A DNA stretch of 33,672 nucleotides from a virus, in the UHGV virus genome UHGV-2170543. One strand, 5' to 3'. Shown one piece after another: positions 1-26,578 of this stretch; position 1 is the first letter of the stretch; each line of letters starts with the position of its first letter. The notes below the pieces were generated by a model. That model was not told the DNA's origin. It searched no databases and saw only the letters and a list, made by a program, of their open reading frames with translations. Position numbers and translations under genes: made by a program.

Positions 1-403
1 TCTGCGAAGCTGGCGATCGGTCAGACTTAAATGCCTGGCAACTTCAGTCTGCGTAGCCACTCCTCACCTCGCAAAAACTCTCACTTCACAATCACAACAA
101 AACCGGTCATGTCCGGCTTACATGTCTATTTTTTGTGCATGTCCGGTTCACAGAAGACCTCTTTTTTTATTTTTCATATAGTTAACTTGAAGAGAAACCG
201 GACATGGTTCCCGGAAAATTTTCATAAATAGCGAAAACCCGCGAGGTCGCCGCCCCGTAACCTGTTGGATCGACGGAAAGGACCCGAAAACGAGAATGAT
301 TATCACTTACAGCAAGAATCGAATCTGATCTATTATGGTGCTTGCTATTATGTGCCGGCACAAGTGCGTCGTTTACCGTCATTTCACACAGAGGCATCAT
401 CAA

Positions 404-655
404 ATGAAAATCAGAAATATTCTCGCTATCTCCCTTGCAACATCATCCTTCAGTTGCCTGGCATTTAAATCCTCGCCCAATGTGCTACCAGGACCAACGA
501 ATCAACTAACTGCGGTAGAAAGTAAAATTATCGGACATTTTTATGCCCCACACAGTGCATTACCCGGAACAACCATCACAGGGACATGTGACGCCTCCCC
601 CGTCCCGGGATGCACCTGTCCGTTTTGTACTATGCTGCGTAGCCAAAACCGATAA
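404..655 (+). CDS. hypothetical secreted Cys-rich protein
   Basis: ATG at 404 within ORF 335-655; N-terminal hydrophobic signal-like segment MKIRNILAISLATSSFSCLA; Cys-rich C-terminus; no family recognised. Confidence 0.25.
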   Translation: MKIRNILAISLATSSFSCLAFKSSPNVLPGPTNQLTAVESKIIGHFYAPHSALPGTTITGTCDASPVPGCTCPFCTMLRSQNR

Positions 656-716
656 CATCCGCATTTACCTGGTATTACATGATGAGTTCACGCAGCGACT
701 GATAGAGGAAGGAAAG

Positions 717-896
717 ATGGTTAGTAAAAGCAAGGCGCATTGCCGCCGCATGCTGCAGGCATTGCAACAGACGAGAGCAGGTATTTTTGACCAGTTGGAA
801 AACTGCCAGCATACTTTGCCCGAGTATATCGCCATCTCATCGGAAACCAGTGCAACTCTTATTCATCGGGTTCCACCAGAGAAAAAGAAGAAATGA
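717..896 (+). CDS. hypothetical small protein
   Basis: ATG at 717 preceded by GGAAGGAAAG; 59-aa ORF; no family recognised. Confidence 0.2.
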   Translation: MVSKSKAHCRRMLQALQQTRAGIFDQLENCQHTLPEYIAISSETSATLIHRVPPEKKKK

Positions 897-1018
897 ACAG
901 TGAGGCGTTGTGTGGCATACAACGCCTTCTTCCATCATTCCTCGTCAGCCATGACAAAAATATAACCGCTGGCTCTTTCATTTTTCTCCTGCGTCCAGCC
1001 CCTCTCTACCTGGAAGCA

Positions 1019-1345
1019 TCAGGGACGTGACGGCGTAAAGATAAATTGTCTCTTCACTCCCTGACAGGGGCGATTCTTTTCAAATCGCCATTTCGCCATG
1101 GCCTTCACCACTTCATCACGAAACAAATTATGAGGCTCTGAGCGGAGAAAAACGATCCGTGTCACAGTCCCATCAGCACCAATATCGAACTTAACCTCAA
1201 CCAGCCCCTTGATATAATTTGCTGCAGCATATTCCGGATATCGTGGATACACCGTCACTAATTGCCGGGGCTCATCAGCTTTTTGCTGCGAGCATCCCAC
1301 TGCCAGGACAGATAACAGAAAAAGTAGTAAAAGGCGTCTTTTCAT
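1019..1345 (-). CDS. lipoprotein with TonB C-terminal-like domain
   Basis: Internal start MKRRLLLLFLLSVLAVGCSQ (lipobox LAVGC) with AGGAA RBS; C-terminal YPRYPEYAAANYIKGLVEVKFDIGADGTVTRI...WRF pattern typical of the TonB_C fold; sits downstream of Rz (bor-like position). Confidence 0.55.
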   Translation of the reverse strand: MKRRLLLLFLLSVLAVGCSQQKADEPRQLVTVYPRYPEYAAANYIKGLVEVKFDIGADGTVTRIVFLRSEPHNLFRDEVVKAMAKWRFEKNRPCQGVKRQFIFTPSRP

Positions 1346-1655
1346 TTTTATTCCTACGGGTCTTATTCTGACAATATATCCTGTGTTCCAGACTGCCACA
1401 TCACCACATCCTGTGCCATTATCTGACTCACATTACATACATCGCATCGGGATACAGTAGTAGCACTTTCTGTAATACAGCTTCCTGTTTCTTCCACCAT
1501 CGCACCGGGATAAACCCGCGAATCATTAACGCGGTAAAAACCCGGTGTGCATCGTTTTTAATTATCCCCGCACACTCGCGCAGAGGAGTCTCCCTGTCGG
1601 ACTGCGGTCTCTGTTAATGAGGGAATATAGCGACGATACGGCGCATCAACAAAAC

Positions 1656-2129
1656 TTATTTCAGGCACTGAGTGCGGATATAGTCCTGTGCCCCTTCCAG
1701 TTGCTTGTGCATCGTCATCAGCCGCTCTCTGAGGGTGAAATAATCCCGTGTAACGGTGTCTGCCAGTTGGGGGCCGGTTGCATTATCCACGCCGGAGGTG
1801 GTGGGGGCTTCACGCACGGAGCCTGGACAGGTGGCGTTGATCCGCAGGCGCTTACGACCAGCGGCAACGTCAGCGCGAAGAGTTTCATTTTCAGCTCTCG
1901 CATCGGCTAATTCCCTCGAGTATTTTGCATCGAGCGCAGCAACATCGCGCTGGCGCACCTGCATATCAGTAATGGTTGCGTTCGCCAGCTTCAGTTCACT
2001 GGCTTTGTTATCGCGCTGCGCTTTGTAGGTAATCGCGTTATCACGGTAATGGTCTGTTGCCATCCACAGCGCACCACAGGCCACCAGCAGAATAACGATA
2101 AACGCGGAAAGCATTCGGTTTATGTTCAC
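1656..2129 (-). CDS. Rz: Rz i-spanin (lysis)
   Basis: 157 aa, N-terminal TM then coiled-coil rich in A/R/E, downstream of endolysin; Rz1 embedded in +1 frame. Confidence 0.8.
1718..1903 (-). CDS. Rz1: Rz1 o-spanin lipoprotein, embedded in Rz
   Basis: [16 protein letters not shown] lipobox followed by proline-rich [14 protein letters not shown], matching the lambda Rz1 pattern; fully nested in Rz in another frame. Confidence 0.75.
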
Positions 2130-2257
2130 CCCAGCAACCCCGACGAAGACAACATCATCCAGGCCATGGAAAGAAAAAGAGCAACCAGCATTAGTGAAAA
2201 TGAAATGCCGACAATTACACAGAGGATCTTCGCCAGCGTTATGAGTTTGTCTGACAT
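2126..2257 (-). CDS. small hydrophobic membrane protein between R and Rz
   Basis: [43 protein letters not shown]; GGGAGG RBS upstream of ATG at 2257. Confidence 0.3.
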
Positions 2258-2271
2258 GCTTAATCCTCCCT

Positions 2272-2418
2272 TCACGATTTCAACGCAATGACCAGTTTTG
2301 CCAGCCCATACAGCATCGGGGACACAGCAACACCGACCGCCACCCACTTAATGGCAAAAGCCAGTGCTCTGCTGATGTCATCAGTTACAGGCGCTTTCAG
2401 TTCAAGGCCATTTTTCAT
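2272..2418 (-). CDS. small hypothetical protein between R and Rz
   Basis: [48 protein letters not shown] with GAGG RBS; one hydrophobic segment. Confidence 0.3.
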
Positions 2419-2610
2419 AGTCAACCTCAACAGAATTCGTTTACACTTCGCCATGTTCTCCCTTGCCTTACTCAAGGTCAGAAACACAAAACCTCGCTTG
2501 GTGCCAACAAACGGGGTTTTTACTTTTATTCACTTACGTTTCGCCAGTTCGCAGGATTTCGTGTTATCCGCCCGCGTGGCCATTCCTCATTTTTCAGCAA
2601 AATATTCTGC

Positions 2611-3144
2611 TTATCTGTCGATACCCCAGCACGCCAGCGCGCTCTCCTGGTCACGACGGGATACCTGACCGTAACAGTTGTTTGAACGAATACGGCAGTC
2701 TCTGCCACCGTCCTTAATCCACCAGCGAATCGCTTCGCAGGCACCTTTTCGATCACCAGCATTAATTCGTCTGTAAAACGTCGACGGGAAACACTTACCG
2801 GGACCAATGTTGTACGGACAGAATGACGCGATCCCCGCTTTCTGGGGTTCGGTCAATGGCACTTTGATGTTTTTCTCCACCCATGCCAGCGCCTTATCAC
2901 GCTCAATGGCGTTAACCCGGTCGCATTTTTCCTTCGACAACTTCATGCCCGGAACGACAGGTTTGCCATCCACCAGGATGGCACCGCGGCAGATGGTCCA
3001 GATACCCGCGCCATCACGGTATGCCGTGGTGTGGTTACCTTCCTTTTCATCCAGAAACTGGTCGAGAATGTCAGGCGCAGGCGCACCAGCGGCAATCAGC
3101 GCCAGAACGGCAGCCGACAGGCCGTATTTGATTTTGGTGTTCAT
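2611..3144 (-). CDS. R: SAR-type endolysin (T4-lysozyme-like GH24 with N-terminal signal-anchor)
   Basis: N-terminal hydrophobic MNTKIKYGLSAAVLALIAAGAPA, then EGNHTTAYRDGAGIWTICRG catalytic E-D-T pattern similar to P22 gp19; lies between holin and Rz. Confidence 0.8.
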   Translation of the reverse strand: MNTKIKYGLSAAVLALIAAGAPAPDILDQFLDEKEGNHTTAYRDGAGIWTICRGAILVDGKPVVPGMKLSKEKCDRVNAIERDKALAWVEKNIKVPLTEPQKAGIASFCPYNIGPGKCFPSTFYRRINAGDRKGACEAIRWWIKDGGRDCRIRSNNCYGQVSRRDQESALACWGIDR

Positions 3145-3180: not shown

Positions 3181-4061
3181 CTAAATACGCACTTTAAGAT
3201 AAGTCAGCCCCGGATGAAGCCAGTAAGCCGGCACTTTTTTAAAGGGTGGAGTATTAAAATCACGAAGAAGAGCCTCCCGCACAATTGCATCCTTATCAGC
3301 ACCACTGGCCAGCGCTTCAATCTCAGCGGCTACCTGAAGATATCCCATGCAACGGCCAACGCGCTTCATCAGCCCCTGCTTTTTATTGTTCTTCAGGTAA
3401 TCAATGGCAAATTCAATGAGCTCCTCACTGTGCTGGTGCGATGGAGGTGTTACTTTCCCATTTTCTGAGATGGTTATTTTCCCAGCATCACCGGATACAA
3501 CAAAGGATGGCCGGTTACACTCCCATTCCAGCTCACTGAAATTATCATTATGAATACTGAAACACTCTGCGAGATTTCTGCTCATCACTTTCCGACAATA
3601 ATCGTCAAACGCAGCAAACTGCTTTTCATCGCCAGAAGGCACCAATATCGACCATTTCTTATTCAGCTCAACGACGTAGCTCTCCAGTTTTTCAATACGT
3701 GATTCAACATCATCTTTTTCTGACCGCAGTGTTGACGGCGGCATCTTCAGAGAACAAGTAATTCTTCCCGGTAGCTTTCCTTTGTAGGTTATCAACACAT
3801 CCTGCGCCTCTAAAATTACGGGGCGCTTTTCCGNNNNNNNNNNNNNNNNNNNNNNNNNNNNTCCATGAAAAACTGCTTCGCCTGCTTTTTCGCCTCAGCT
3901 TCGTAAAACTCCAGCGTGGCACCTTCAGTACGGTCAAGACTAATCGCCACATTTGGCAACAACAGTGACGGATACCCACCAATTTCCAGTACCACAGTAA
4001 CAGTAATCTTATCCGGGTAATTATTTATCCCTTTAACAACCAGTTCGTATTTTTTCTTCAT
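3181..4061 (-). CDS. hypothetical late protein between S and R with a copy-specific about 180-aa C-terminal extension; interrupted by assembly gap
   Basis: N-terminal MKKKYELVVKGINNY... matches copy B gene 33208-33561; after the gap the frame continues ITYKGKLPGRITCSLKMPPSTLRSEKDD... to 3181, whereas copy B stops at ...SLKTPPESQP; frame across the N-run not verifiable. Confidence 0.4.
3834..3861. other. assembly gap (N run, 28 nt) inside S-R intergenic gene
   Basis: Run of n characters; length does not match copy B (about 38-39 nt expected). Confidence 1.
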
Positions 4062-4065
4062 CGCT

Positions 4066-4278
4066 TTACTCTCCCCGCGCCGCCTTACGCCGGTCCTCTC
4101 TGATTTTGAAATACAGGTTAGTCAGGTACGTCAGCAGCCCAAACAGCAGACTCCCCAGCACGCCTATTGCCGCCCACTGAGACGGGGAAACCCTGTCCAG
4201 CAACTGCNNNNNNNNNNNNNNNNNNNNCGCTGACGTGGTGTATGACACACCTGTTGTGATTTTTTCCATCTGGTACAT
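4066..4278 (-). CDS. S: class II holin / pinholin (S21-like)
   Basis: [17 protein letters not shown]...[46 protein letters not shown]; two TM segments; contains N run 4208-4227. Confidence 0.8.
4208..4227. other. assembly gap (N run, 20 nt) inside holin gene
   Basis: Run of n characters. Confidence 1.
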
Positions 4279-25237: not shown

Positions 25238-25510
25238 ATGGCGCACAAAACCAAATTTCACAATTCTGATACCGACCTTGCCATCCGGCATGGGCGGCGT
25301 TCACACGCATTTAAAACCGACTGGTACCAACACCCACCATGTACTGAAGAACAGGCCGAATGGCTAATTCATAACTACCGCAGACGCGGATACGAGATTA
25401 AGAAAGCCCTCAGCCTCGATTATCGTCACTGGATAATCTATGTCAGGCTCCCTTATTCCGAACGCTCACCGCGCCCATCCCGCACATTCCAGCAACGCAT
25501 CTGGAGGTAA
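25238..25510 (+). CDS. hypothetical protein
   Basis: 90 aa ORF preceding DUF968 gene. Confidence 0.35.
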   Translation: MAHKTKFHNSDTDLAIRHGRRSHAFKTDWYQHPPCTEEQAEWLIHNYRRRGYEIKKALSLDYRHWIIYVRLPYSERSPRPSRTFQQRIWR

Positions 25511-25511
25511 C

Positions 25512-26566
25512 GTGCGGATATTACTTCGACCTGTTCTGGTACCGGAACTCGGGCTGGTGGTCCTTAGGCCGGGCCGTGAATCCATGCAAGTATTTCATAA
25601 CCCTCGAGTGCTGGTGGAGCCTGAACCGAAAAGCATGCGCGGTCTGCCGTCCGGAGTCGTCCCTGCCGTTCGCCAGCCGCTGGCGGAGGATAAATCATTT
25701 CTGCCATTTTTCAGCGATGAGCGGGTGATTCGTGCTGCTGGCGGCGCTGGGGCACTGTCTGACTGGCTGTTGCGTCATGCCAAATCCTGCCAGTGGCCTC
25801 ATGGTGACTATCATCACAGTGAAATCGTCATACATCGTTACGGTACCGGCGCGATGGTGTTGTGCTGGCACTGCGACAACCAGTTGCGTGACCAGACATC
25901 CGAATCACTCGGGCAACTTGCTCATCAAAACCTGTCAGCATGGATGATTGACGTCATACGCCATGCAATGAATGGCACGCAGGAGCGGGAATTGTCGCTG
26001 GCTGAATTATCCTGGTGGGCGGTCCGCAATCAGGTGGCGGACGCGCTACCGGAAGTGGTATTACGTCGTTCGCTGGGGTTGCGTGCGGAAAAAATCCGCT
26101 CAATGTACCGTGAAAGCGACATCGTACCGGGAGNNNNNNNNNNNNNNNNNNNNNNNNNNNNNNNNNNNNNNNNNNNNNNNNNNNNNNNNNNNNNNNNNNN
26201 NNNNNNNNNNNNNNNNNNCCACAGGAAGAGACGGTGGTCAGCATTGCCGTTGATCCTGAGTCTCCGGAATCTTTCATGAAACGACCTAAACGTCGCCGCT
26301 GGGTTAACGAGAAATACAAACGCTGGGTGAAGACACAGCCGTGTGCGTGTTGTGGTAAGCCAGCCGACGATCCCCATCACCTGATTGGTCATGGTCAGGG
26401 CGGAATGGGGACAAAATCTCACGATATTTTCACGCTACCGCTGTGTCGGGAGCATCACAACGAGCTTCATGCGGATCCTCTGGCGTTCGAAGAAAAGCAT
26501 GGTTCTCAGGTTGATTTAATTTTTCGTTTTCTTGATCACGCCTTTGCAACTGGCGTGCTTGGGTAA
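25512..26566 (+). CDS. DUF968-family nin-region protein, copy B (spans assembly gap)
   Basis: GTG start after GGAGG RBS; N- and C-terminal parts paralogous to 10095-11090; interrupted by N run 26134-26218. Confidence 0.55.
26134..26218. other. assembly gap (N run, 85 nt) inside DUF968 gene
   Basis: Run of n characters. Confidence 1.
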
Positions 26567-26578
26567 AAGAGGTGACTG

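What the first reader, a model, noticed from the sequence alone, without database searches (positions are those of the whole stretch)
1019..1345. Lipoprotein with TonB C-terminal-like domain in the bor position after Rz
Immediately downstream of Rz/Rz1, where lambda carries the bor lipoprotein, there is a lipoprotein (lipobox LAVGC) whose mature part has the YP-x-YP...G-x-V-x-V-x-F-x-I...WRF pattern of the TonB C-terminal domain. A periplasm-facing TonB-C mimic could compete for TonB boxes of outer-membrane receptors and block TonB-dependent phage or colicin uptake, analogous to known lipoprotein exclusion factors (Cor, Llp); this is a hypothesis.
Basis: partly seen in the sequence, partly recalled or inferred. 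Interest (0 to 1): 0.5.

Follow-up and report, generated by a model that had tools for sequence, protein, structure and literature searches.

The report
Prophage lipoprotein made of TonB's C-terminal domain
A lambdoid prophage carries a small outer-membrane lipoprotein that is essentially a lipid-anchored copy of the receptor-docking domain of TonB; databases already annotate it and about 30% of complete E. coli genomes carry it, but its function (possibly jamming TonB-dependent entry of phages, colicins and siderophores) has never been tested.

Summary
Window 1019-1345 (- strand) encodes a 108-aa protein with a type II signal peptide (LAVG|C18, Ser at +2). Its mature part is a near-complete TonB C-terminal domain:
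- Pfam TonB_C, E = 7e-13.
- Ungapped 41% identity to E. coli TonB residues 150-230.
- AF2 model within 0.9-1.0 Å of transporter-bound TonB.

The gene is under purifying selection (dN/dS 0.13). It is identical in phage 21, ev017 and Perceval, and occurs in 1617 of 5426 complete E. coli genomes as two alleles. Related prophages of Klebsiella and Rahnella carry a homologue in the same lysis-to-terminase slot.

It is not a new discovery as a gene. GenBank calls it "TonB C-terminal domain protein", "TonB family protein" or "TonB fragment", and RNA-seq in strain LF82 lists it as a lysogen-expressed moron.

I found no functional study. It remains unproven. Three Ton-box contact residues differ, and distant family members sit as orphan chromosomal genes.

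The gene is not in the bor slot. It lies after a conserved, apparently undescribed ~180-nt structured RNA element.

The parts
1019..1345 (-). Complete ORF (108 codons plus stop) of the TonB-C-domain lipoprotein, identical to phage 21 CPT_21_73 and to WP_000830178.1
   Evidence: ORF list. tblastn gives 100% identity to phage 21, ev017 and Perceval. PGAP annotates it as 'TonB family protein'. dN/dS is 0.13 against the type-B allele.
1292..1345 (-). Type II (lipoprotein) signal peptide, residues 1-18, with lipobox L-A-V-G-C. Cys18 is the predicted lipidated first residue of the mature protein and Ser19 is at +2.
   Evidence: Read from the sequence. G17 and C18 are invariant in E. coli and Klebsiella alleles. 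The Cys is nearly invariant in the wider family.
1034..1270 (-). TonB C-terminal domain, residues 26-104, corresponding to E. coli TonB 153-231. Predicted order: short N-terminal strand, short helix (YPxYA), beta1, beta2, alpha2, beta3.
   Evidence: Pfam and NCBIfam. PDB sequence alignment. AF2 model. Foldseek against PDB.
1352..1355 (-). Shine-Dalgarno AGGA, 6 nt upstream of the ATG
   Evidence: Read from the sequence. Phage 21 annotates a ribosome-binding site at the same place.
1475..1655 (-). Conserved ~180-nt non-coding element between the Rz stop codon and the gene. It is a predicted structured RNA in the sense of the late transcript. It marks the left edge of the variable cargo slot that holds this gene.
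   Evidence: About 90% identical between carriers of type-A and type-B alleles, although the ORFs are only 73% identical. Found in 424 phage records, including lambda. No Rfam match. Pair counts on 43 distinct copies: 26 pairs, 98.3% of cells paired against 37-51% when partners are slid, and 0 of 500 shuffles reach the observed covariation score.
1656..2129 (-). Rz (i-spanin) with embedded Rz1 (o-spanin lipoprotein, 1718-1903). Context only: it shows that the spanin function is already covered.
   Evidence: phrog_13 at E = 1.6e-73 and phrog_3198 at E = 1.3e-29.

Best explanation
**What the gene is (shown).** It is a prophage accessory gene (moron). It encodes a small lipoprotein consisting of a signal peptide, a lipidated Cys, a tether of about 8 residues, and a stand-alone TonB C-terminal domain. 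It lacks TonB's transmembrane anchor and proline-rich spacer.

[quoted passage not shown] There it would sit level with the Ton boxes of TonB-dependent transporters such as FhuA, FepA, CirA, BtuB and FecA.

**How it most likely works (inferred, not shown).** It cannot be coupled to ExbB/ExbD. I therefore propose that it acts as a non-energised decoy. It would dock by beta-strand augmentation on exposed Ton boxes of transporters, or of incoming group-B colicins. Alternatively it could pair with TonB's own C-terminal domain.

**Expected consequence.** Productive TonB engagement would be reduced. That would lower TonB-dependent irreversible adsorption or entry of phages of the T1/phi80 type, and of group-B colicins, microcins and sideromycins. 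The cost would be reduced siderophore and B12 uptake.

**When it is made.** It is transcribed in the lysogen. It also lies inside the late operon, so it would be made late in lytic growth as well.
For: **Identity and fold.**. The best structural matches are TonB in complex with BtuB (2GSK_B, 1.0 Å) and with FhuA (2GRX_C, 0.9 Å).

**Selection.** dN/dS is 0.13 over the whole gene, with dS about 1.4, between the two E. coli alleles.

**Lipobox conservation.** It is conserved across E. coli, Klebsiella, Rahnella, Pantoea and other homologues.

**Recognition residues.** Y163, F180, G186, F202, W213 and F230 equivalents are identical, and Y215 becomes F. PMC3005593 identifies exactly these seven as the only functionally important residues of the TonB C-terminus. 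It notes that five of them are poorly conserved among TonBs in general (22-53%) but conserved in enterics, as expected of transporter-recognition residues.

**Docking strand.** Beta3, to which Ton boxes pair (PMC2533080; PMC3005593), is present at residues 94-103.

**Precedent.** Howard et al. [quoted passage not shown] I saw only the title, in reference lists.

**Expression.** The identical gene LF82_160 is transcribed 8-fold above the prophage background in a lysogen (PMC9928086, Table 1).

**Distribution typical of an accessory or competition gene.**
- 1617 of 5426 complete E. coli genomes.
- The same slot in unrelated lambdoid backbones.
- One plasmid copy next to a Qat defence system.

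**Possible compensation.** All seven sequenced type-A phage records also carry sitABCD. To my knowledge Sit is a TonB-independent Fe/Mn importer, which could offset an iron cost.
Against: - No experiment exists, and the mechanism is inference from homology.
- Residues in TonB's Ton-box contact segments are less conserved (6 of 20 in segments 158-171 and 225-230) than the rest of the domain (23 of 53).
- R158 becomes T or K, Q160 becomes Y or L, and R166 becomes Y. The Tyr at the R166 position is family-invariant. This may mean a different partner or binding mode.
- The exposed face of beta3 is variable across the wider family.
- Distant family members are orphan chromosomal genes in Pantoea, Erwinia and others, with no phage, TBDT or exbBD neighbours. 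A constitutive TonB inhibitor there looks costly.
- There is no PADLOC match.
- No sigma-70 consensus promoter was found upstream on the coding strand.
- From memory (Higgs et al. 2002), transporters greatly outnumber TonB. Saturating Ton boxes would therefore need high expression.
- The sit association is confounded by shared ancestry. Nineteen sit-carrying phage records lack the gene, and type-B carriers lack sit.
Confidence: 0.4

Rival explanations
1. It is a TonB-fold binding module with a partner outside the Ton system. Under this view the fold is used as a generic beta-augmentation or peptide-binding domain tethered to the outer membrane. Possible partners are peptidoglycan, another envelope protein, or a host or competitor molecule. 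The role would be in envelope stability, stress tolerance or virulence, like other lambdoid moron lipoproteins such as Bor.
For: - Family-specific invariant residues differ from TonB exactly in the transporter-contact helix: Y39 replaces R166 and N43 replaces L170. The motif SEPxHLFD replaces AKPANMFE.
- Distant members are orphan chromosomal genes in plant-associated Enterobacterales, next to unrelated metabolic genes.
- TonB_C domains also occur in non-TonB architectures. Many multi-repeat TonB_C proteins appeared in the exhaustive search, and BlaR-like sensors with TonB_C domains turned up in the literature search.
Against: The closest relatives by both sequence and structure are bona fide enteric TonB C-terminal domains (41% identity, 0.9-1.0 Å). 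All seven TonB recognition residues are retained, which a domain re-purposed for an unrelated ligand would not need. No alternative partner is suggested by gene neighbourhood.
Confidence: 0.27
2. It modulates iron and nutrient uptake for host fitness rather than for defence. It would bind particular TonB-dependent transporters to tune siderophore, haem or B12 uptake or FecA-type signalling, for example limiting iron overload. In phage 21 and Perceval it would act together with the co-carried SitABCD Fe/Mn transporter.
For: - All seven type-A phage records also carry sitABCD.
- Both are among the Perceval morons expressed in LF82 lysogens.
- The domain keeps the TonB recognition residues.
Against: The co-occurrence is explained by shared ancestry of phage 21-like phages. 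Type-B carriers (Stx1a phages, JLK-2012), the Klebsiella and Rahnella prophages, and the E. coli AR_0017 prophage carry the gene without sit nearby. No Fur box scoring above 11 of 19 lies upstream of the gene.
Confidence: 0.15
3. It is a lysis accessory protein or spanin, as the PHROG label 'Rz-like spanin' for phrog_1267 implies. Under this view the lipoprotein would take part in outer-membrane disruption at the end of the lytic cycle.
For: It matches phrog_1267 at E = 5e-43 under the label 'Rz-like spanin'. The gene follows the lysis cassette on the same strand, within the late operon, in E. coli, Klebsiella and Rahnella prophages.
Against: - A complete Rz/Rz1 pair is already present (phrog_13 and phrog_3198).
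- The protein has no C-terminal transmembrane segment (needed for a unimolecular spanin) and no Rz1-like proline-rich sequence.
- Homologues occur outside prophages.
- Only 20 of 121 copies of the upstream element are followed by this gene, so it is dispensable cargo.
- The label looks like annotation transferred by position.
Confidence: 0.04
4. It is a decaying, non-functional fragment of a captured tonB gene, as the database names 'TonB fragment' and 'partial tonB-like membrane protein' suggest.
For: Database names. It lacks two of the three TonB regions.
Against: - dN/dS is 0.13 at dS about 1.4.
- The ORF is intact in more than 1600 genomes.
- A lipoprotein signal peptide has been acquired and is conserved.
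- The fold is confidently predicted.
- It is transcribed in a lysogen.
Confidence: 0.03

Closest known systems
TonB energy transducer (E. coli TonB, PDB 2GSK, 2GRX, 1XX3, 1U07), C-terminal domain
   Same: Homologous domain: Pfam TonB_C, 41% identity without gaps to TonB residues 150-230, and 0.9-1.0 Å rmsd. The YP motif, G186 and the five enteric aromatic recognition residues are kept. Strand beta3, which pairs with Ton boxes, is present.
   Different: It has no N-terminal transmembrane helix for ExbB/ExbD coupling and no proline-rich periplasm-spanning spacer. Instead it has a lipoprotein signal peptide and a short tether, so it is anchored to the opposite membrane and cannot transduce energy. 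R158, Q160 and R166 equivalents are changed. The last roughly 8 TonB residues are missing.
Experimentally exported periplasmic TonB fragments (Howard, Herrmann, Stratilo and Braun 2001, J Bacteriol 183:5885)
   Same: A TonB C-terminal region placed in the periplasm without the energy-coupling N-terminus. The title reports inhibition of FecA and FhuA transport. This is the mechanistic precedent for a dominant-negative decoy.
   Different: Those were artificial, over-expressed, soluble fragments of TonB itself. This is a natural, diverged, lipid-anchored protein encoded by a prophage, and its effect is untested. I could not read the paper; only its title in reference lists.
Cor (phi80, N15, HK022) and Llp (T5): phage lipoproteins that exclude superinfection at FhuA
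   Same: Small phage-encoded outer-membrane lipoproteins facing the periplasm that act on a TonB-dependent transporter. Llp binds FhuA from the inner leaflet (abstract of bioRxiv 10.64898/2026.03.26.714494). The proposed outcome, exclusion, is the same.
   Different: There is no sequence or fold relationship; the only Pfam hit is TonB_C. Cor and Llp target one receptor and block adsorption. A TonB mimic would target the common Ton box and so act on many transporters, blocking the energy-dependent step.
Bor/Iss lipoprotein of lambda
   Same: A small outer-membrane lipoprotein moron in the Rz-to-cos interval of lambdoid phages that is expressed in lysogens.
   Different: Unrelated sequence, opposite strand, and a different slot: bor lies left of the conserved ~180-nt element and this gene lies right of it. 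Both co-exist in phage 21.

Membership tests
TonB_C domain family (Pfam PF03544 / TIGR01352) | Significant match to the family profile above the curated threshold | tested here: met
   PF03544 scores 49.2 bits against a cut-off of 24.6, E = 7.3e-13. TIGR01352 scores 47.4 bits against 27.1.
TonB_C domain family (Pfam PF03544 / TIGR01352) | beta-beta-alpha-beta fold of the TonB C-terminal domain | tested here: met
   The AF2 model has pLDDT 87 with strands at 47-55, 61-70 and 94-103 and a helix at 76-83. Foldseek gives TM 0.92 and rmsd 0.9-1.0 Å to 2GRX_C and 2GSK_B.
TonB energy-transducer proteins (functional TonB, NCBIfam PRK10819 equivalogs) | N-terminal transmembrane anchor that couples to ExbB/ExbD | tested here: not met
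   Residues 1-18 are a cleavable lipoprotein signal peptide. The NCBIfam equivalog models score 45-69 bits against cut-offs of 265-448 and match only their C-terminal roughly 80 positions.
TonB energy-transducer proteins (functional TonB, NCBIfam PRK10819 equivalogs) | Proline-rich periplasm-spanning spacer | tested here: not met
   The mature protein is 90 aa. Only about 8 residues (SQQKADE) lie between Cys18 and the start of the domain.
TonB energy-transducer proteins (functional TonB, NCBIfam PRK10819 equivalogs) | Binding of Ton boxes of outer-membrane transporters | not testable with these tools
   Only indirect evidence. Beta3 and the seven functionally important residues are conserved, but R158, Q160 and R166 equivalents differ. 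Multimer modelling is not available here.
Bacterial outer-membrane lipoproteins (Lol-sorted) | Positively charged n-region, hydrophobic h-region, lipobox [LVI][ASTVI][GAS]C, and no Asp at +2 | tested here: met
   The sequence is MKRR-LLLLFLLSVL-AVG-C-S. The feature is conserved in homologues. This was a rule-based reading; no dedicated predictor was available and lipidation has not been shown.
Phage superinfection-exclusion lipoproteins Cor / Llp | Sequence or fold homology to Cor or Llp | tested here: not met
   Pfam returns only TonB_C. The PHROG hits are phrog_1267 and phrog_34172. The fold search returns only TonB and TolA domains.
Phage superinfection-exclusion lipoproteins Cor / Llp | Confers resistance to phages that use the targeted receptor | not testable with these tools
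   No experimental report was found.
Spanins (Rz1 o-spanin or unimolecular spanin), as phrog_1267 is labelled | An o-spanin embedded in or adjacent to its i-spanin partner, or a lipoprotein with a C-terminal transmembrane domain | tested here: not met
   A separate, complete Rz/Rz1 pair lies at 1656-2129 and 1718-1903. This protein ends ...FIFTPSRP with no hydrophobic C-terminal segment.
Known anti-phage defence systems (PADLOC-DB 2.0) | Match to any defence-system protein model | tested here: not met
   No families matched at E <= 1.

The most novel reading that the evidence does not exclude
A prophage has captured the docking domain of TonB, fused it to a lipoprotein signal, and uses it as a broad-spectrum 'gate jammer'. 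The outer-membrane-tethered mimic would occupy Ton boxes, or trap TonB. About 30% of complete E. coli genomes carry it. Lysogens would then be less permeable to TonB-dependent phages, group-B colicins, microcins and siderophore-drug conjugates. In phage 21-like phages the iron cost would be offset by the co-carried SitABCD transporter. This would be exclusion by molecular mimicry of a host energy transducer, a mechanism distinct from the receptor-specific Cor and Llp proteins.
Probability: 0.3. Interest if true: 0.75.

Novelty: new variant of a known kind. Interest (0 to 1): 0.5.

Why it matters
TonB-dependent transporters are the entry gates for many phages, including candidates for therapy. 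They also admit group-B colicins and microcins used in gut competition, and sideromycin antibiotics such as albomycin and cefiderocol.

If a mobile gene carried by nearly a third of complete E. coli genomes dampens all these gates at once, several things would follow:
- It would be a widespread and overlooked determinant of phage, bacteriocin and drug susceptibility, and of iron physiology.
- It would be a clean natural example of a virus disarming a host machine with a decoy copy of one of that machine's own domains.
- It would give the TonB field a natural dominant-negative tool.

If the protein instead has a non-Ton partner, it shows that the TonB fold has been re-used as a lipoprotein binding module across Enterobacterales.

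The test is cheap: one plasmid and a panel of phages and colicins.

Tried and rejected
**Structure and defence searches**
- Single-sequence AF2 gave a poor model (pLDDT 51). It was replaced by a run with a 41-sequence alignment.
- PADLOC found nothing for this gene or for the 45-aa ORF upstream.

**Regulation upstream of the gene**
- The sigma-70 and terminator scan found no promoter on the coding strand.
- The Fur-box scan found nothing above 11 of 19 matches upstream of the gene.
- Regulation therefore remains unresolved.
- The 45-aa upstream ORF (1363-1500, annotated in phage 21) is not conserved in frame in the type-B locus, so I do not treat it as a gene.

**RNA and related loci**
- Rfam gave no real hit in window 1-2300. 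The only hit was a spurious mir-483 match to a hairpin at about 904-926.
- Folding the 321-nt upstream region alone gave z = -1.5, which is uninformative.

**Literature**
- Searches for any functional study found only one relevant item, the LF82 transcriptome table. The terms used were TonB-like prophage, CP-933N, TonB fragment, mimic or lipoprotein, and WP_000830178. Three O157 papers that mention CP-933N do not concern this gene.
- Howard et al. 2001 (PMC99666) and Sauter et al. 2003 (PMC193961) are not held.
- I checked whether the conserved upstream RNA element is one of the lambda sRNAs PreS, LPR2 or 6S. The paper places PreS in the early-left operon. It places LPR2 and 6S RNA in the same late-operon region as StxS (which another abstract, derives from early termination just downstream of pR'). 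None is placed downstream of Rz/bor.

**Ideas rejected**
- The spanin reading and the 'decaying fragment' reading; see the rival explanations.
- The sitABCD link as strong evidence, because it tracks phage 21-like ancestry.
Full report
**1. What is in the sequence**

On the - strand, window 1019-1345 is a 108-codon ORF. It starts at ATG 1345 and has an AGGA Shine-Dalgarno 6 nt upstream. A longer GTG-initiated version (to 1399) exists mechanically. Both PGAP and the phage 21 annotators use the ATG.

The product begins MKRRLLLLFLLSVLAVG-C18-SQQK. This is a basic n-region, a hydrophobic core, a lipobox and Ser at +2. That is the signature of a Lol-sorted outer-membrane lipoprotein.

Upstream on the same strand are:
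- Rz (1656-2129) with embedded Rz1 (1718-1903). They match the spanin families phrog_13 and phrog_3198.
- The lysozyme (2611-3144).
- The rest of a lambdoid late region.

Downstream, the window runs towards cos. Phage 21 cosQ aligns to about window 279-285.

**2. The TonB resemblance is real**

- Pfam TonB_C matches at E = 7.3e-13, twice the gathering score.
- TIGR01352 and the enteric TonB equivalog models match only through their C-terminal roughly 80 positions.
- Against PDB sequences the best hits are all E. coli TonB C-terminal fragments (E about 1e-14). The alignment is ungapped, with query residue n equal to TonB residue n+127 over residues 23-103.
- Identity is 33 of 81 residues.
- A single-sequence AF2 run was poor. 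With a 41-sequence alignment the model reached pLDDT 87, and above 95 over residues 25-105.
- Foldseek placed the model 0.9-1.0 Å from TonB as seen bound to FhuA (2GRX_C) and BtuB (2GSK_B), with TM 0.92.

The domain is essentially complete. It runs from the equivalent of TonB P153 through strand beta3 (residues 94-103, TonB 221-230). Only TonB's last roughly 8 residues are missing.

**3. It is a functional gene, common, and already annotated**

The identical protein is encoded by:
- Phage 21 (CPT_21_73, 'TonB C-terminal domain protein').
- ev017 ('Partial tonB-like membrane protein encoded within prophage CP-933N').
- Perceval ('TonB fragment').
- Three ECOR-derived phages.

PGAP names it 'TonB family protein', WP_000830178.1.

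In complete E. coli genomes:
- The type-A allele (at least 95% nt identity) is in 1225 of 5426 genomes.
- A type-B allele (about 73% nt, 70-72% aa) is found in O157:H7 and other genomes and in Stx1a phages. It brings the total to 1617 genomes.

Between the two alleles dN/dS is 0.13, with dS about 1.4. That is strong purifying selection and excludes the 'decaying fragment' reading.

The only experimental datum I found is transcriptomic. In AIEC strain LF82 the identical gene (LF82_160) is listed among Perceval morons, expressed 8-fold above the local prophage background in LB (PMC9928086, Table 1).

**4. The family and its contexts**

A Klebsiella prophage protein (41% identical) and a Rahnella prophage protein (31%) are also lipoproteins. 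They lie in the same place, after the lysis cassette and before the small terminase subunit, in backbones with different head genes. JLK-2012 (type B) shows the same arrangement.

All of these fall in phrog_1267. Its label 'Rz-like spanin' is almost certainly a positional mis-annotation.

An exhaustive profile search and a word-seeded profile search found a wider set of proteins of about 105-135 aa. Nearly all have a lipobox, and the source names attached to them include Pantoea, Erwinia, Rahnella and 'Salmonella'.

Their contexts are mixed:
- Orphan chromosomal genes among unrelated metabolic genes.
- One inserted in a bcs cellulose locus.
- One beside an integrase stub, near a colicin-like gene in one of two genomes.
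- One on a plasmid, next to partition genes and a Qat defence system.

None is linked to exbBD or to a TonB-dependent transporter. This looks like a single-gene accessory cassette that phages have picked up.

**5. Slot structure, and correction of the 'bor position'**

I aligned the window with phage 21, JLK-2012 and lambda. Homology begins at the same point in all of them. That point is immediately after the Rz stop in the window, after bor in phage 21 and lambda, and after a KilA-N gene in JLK-2012. For the type-A against type-B comparison, homology ends at the stop codon of the lipoprotein gene.

The first roughly 180 nt of this unit (window 1475-1655) are about 90% identical between carriers whose ORFs are only 73% identical.

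That segment is present in 424 phage records and in more than 120 IMG/VR contigs. Only 20 of 121 copies are followed by this gene, always at a fixed distance. The others are followed by a YnfO/YlcI-like gene, by terminase genes directly, or by lambda's p78.

So the lipoprotein occupies a variable cargo slot to the right of a conserved element. Bor, when present, is to the left of it. Phage 21 has both. This window has no bor.

**6. How it may work**

Shown:
- Domain identity.
- Lipoprotein signals.
- Selection.
- Lysogen transcription.
- Position inside the late operon.

Inferred:
- Outer-membrane inner-leaflet location.
- Inability to couple to ExbBD, because the protein has no transmembrane helix and no spacer.

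Several facts make this more than a guess.

- PMC3005593 reports that a Cys scan of TonB 150-239 found only seven functionally important residues: Y163, F180, G186, F202, W213, Y215 and F230. Five of them are poorly conserved among TonBs at large (22-53%) but conserved in enterics. The authors interpret them as transporter- and colicin-recognition residues.
- The phage protein keeps six of the seven identically and has F for Y215. In the family alignments:
  - Y36, G59, F75 and W86 are invariant.
  - F103 is nearly invariant.
  - Position 53 alternates F and Y.
- Ton boxes pair with beta3 and contact residues 158-171 (PMC3005593; PMC2533080). Beta3 is present.
- Howard et al. [quoted passage not shown] I could not read the paper.

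*Counter-evidence* is listed in the Against line. The most important points are these.
- R158, Q160 and R166 equivalents are replaced. The Tyr at the R166 position is invariant in the family.
- The contact segments are less conserved than the core (6 of 20 against 23 of 53).
- Distant relatives live in chromosomes, where a constitutive TonB brake seems costly.
- Stoichiometry favours trapping TonB over saturating transporters. This point rests on my memory of Higgs et al. 2002.

I therefore put the decoy or TonB-interference mechanism at about 0.4. A non-Ton partner for the fold gets about 0.27. A nutritional-tuning role gets about 0.15. The spanin and pseudogene readings are each below 0.05.

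**7. A possible companion**

Phage 21 carries sitABCD in its b-region. All seven type-A phage records also carry sitA. To my knowledge Sit imports Fe2+/Mn2+ without TonB, which would neatly offset a TonB brake.

However, 19 other sit-carrying phage records lack the lipoprotein gene. Type-B, Klebsiella and Rahnella carriers lack sit, as does the AR_0017 prophage. The association is therefore best explained by ancestry, and I give it little weight.

**8. Comparison with what is known, and novelty**

- As a domain, it is a member of TonB_C.
- As a protein, it fails two defining features of TonB energy transducers: the anchor and the spacer.
- It is unrelated to Cor, Llp or Bor.
- As a gene, it is already in the databases and in one transcriptome table.

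I found nothing in the searchable literature on three points: a test of its function, recognition that it is a conserved lipoprotein family with a fixed prophage slot, and the mimicry hypothesis.

I rate it a new variant of a known kind, namely a phage moron lipoprotein acting at outer-membrane receptors. Interest is moderate (0.5). The most novel reading has probability about 0.3.

**9. Side finding**

The conserved ~180-nt element upstream has no Rfam match. On 43 distinct copies RNAalifold predicts five helices with 26 pairs.

Counting those pairs gives:
- 98.3% of cells paired, against 37-51% when partners are slid by 1-3 columns.
- Covariation score 0.134, against 0.03-0.05 in the slid controls.
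- 0 of 500 shuffles reach the observed score.
- Four pairs with changes on both sides. Examples are columns 175/197 (GC 19, UA 11, GU 8) and 36/94 (UA 22, UG 18, CG 3).

The intermediates are U-G on this strand, which would be A-C on the other. This points to an RNA in the sense of the late transcript.

It is not one of the lambda sRNAs PreS, LPR2 or 6S. The paper places PreS in the early-left operon, and LPR2 and 6S in the same late-operon region as StxS. Its function is unknown. It could be a processing or stability element, or an insulator at the end of the lysis module, and it could affect expression of the cargo gene.

Noticed in passing
window 1475-1655 (- strand); also lambda NC_001416 at about 46.86-47.04 kb (L013 about 1460-1640): A conserved ~180-nt non-coding element directly after Rz/bor. 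It is present in 424 phage records and more than 120 IMG/VR contigs and has no Rfam match. Pair counts on 43 distinct copies support five helices: 98.3% of cells paired against 37-51% when slid, 4 pairs with compensatory changes, and U-G intermediates only on the late-transcript strand. It is an apparently undescribed structured RNA at the end of the lambdoid lysis module, marking a variable cargo slot.
   Followed up: partly
window 286-310 (+ strand), next to the cosQ equivalent (about 279-285), upstream of + strand ORF 404-655: The best Fur-box-like matches in the whole window: two overlapping 15-of-19 matches to GATAATGATAATCATTATC, offset by 6 nt. They lie upstream of an unannotated 83-aa ORF with a signal-peptide-like N-terminus and a Cys-rich C-terminus (MKIRNILAISLATSSFSCLAF...). 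The ORF has no Pfam or PHROG hit. This may be chance or related to cos.
   Followed up: partly
window about 25440-33672 (+ strand): A second lambdoid late region in the opposite orientation to the first. It contains DUF968, antiterminator Q (26929-27624), a eukaryote-like Ser/Thr kinase (27696-28535), a PP2C phosphatase (28532-29275), a SASA/DUF1737 esterase (30987-32840), then what by position look like holin and lysozyme ORFs at the window end. The window therefore spans two adjacent or chimeric prophages.
   Followed up: partly
window 3834-3861, 4208-4227, 26134-26218: Three runs of N (28, 20 and 85 bases), giving X-runs in translated ORFs such as 3710-3982 and 3816-4061. These are masked or unresolved sequence.
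   Followed up: no
window 2126-2487 (- strand): Two small ORFs (71 and 73 aa, 2272-2487 and 2126-2347) lie between the lysozyme and Rz, with no Pfam hit. PGAP annotates two hypothetical proteins in the same interval of the identical E. coli AR_0017 prophage.
   Followed up: no
L014 (phage 21, 21967-25416); also Perceval, ev017 and PhiR phages: Every sequenced phage record carrying the type-A TonB-like gene (7 of 7) also carries the SitABCD Fe/Mn ABC transporter. Nineteen other sit-carrying E. coli phage records lack the TonB-like gene. This could be functional pairing or shared ancestry.
   Followed up: partly
L003 about 3470-3490 (JLK-2012, type-B allele), just upstream of the ATG: The type-B allele has a 13-nt insertion that creates a perfect palindrome, AGAATAAG-A-CTTATTCT, between the conserved TTGT(C/T)AGAATAAGAC motif and the RBS. 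The type-A allele in the window has only the left half. It may be an operator or regulatory difference between the alleles.
   Followed up: no
window 904-926: A perfect 8-bp hairpin (GGCGTTGT...ACAACGCC) about 95 nt downstream of the gene's stop codon, with T-rich sequence on both sides. It caused a spurious mir-483 Rfam hit. It may be a weak or bidirectional terminator.
   Followed up: no
proteins P0051, P0054, P0055, P0056 and others: Many proteins of 300-2100 aa carry 3-6 tandem TonB_C domains and score as high against the lipoprotein-family profile as the family's own members do. This architecture is unfamiliar to me.
   Followed up: no
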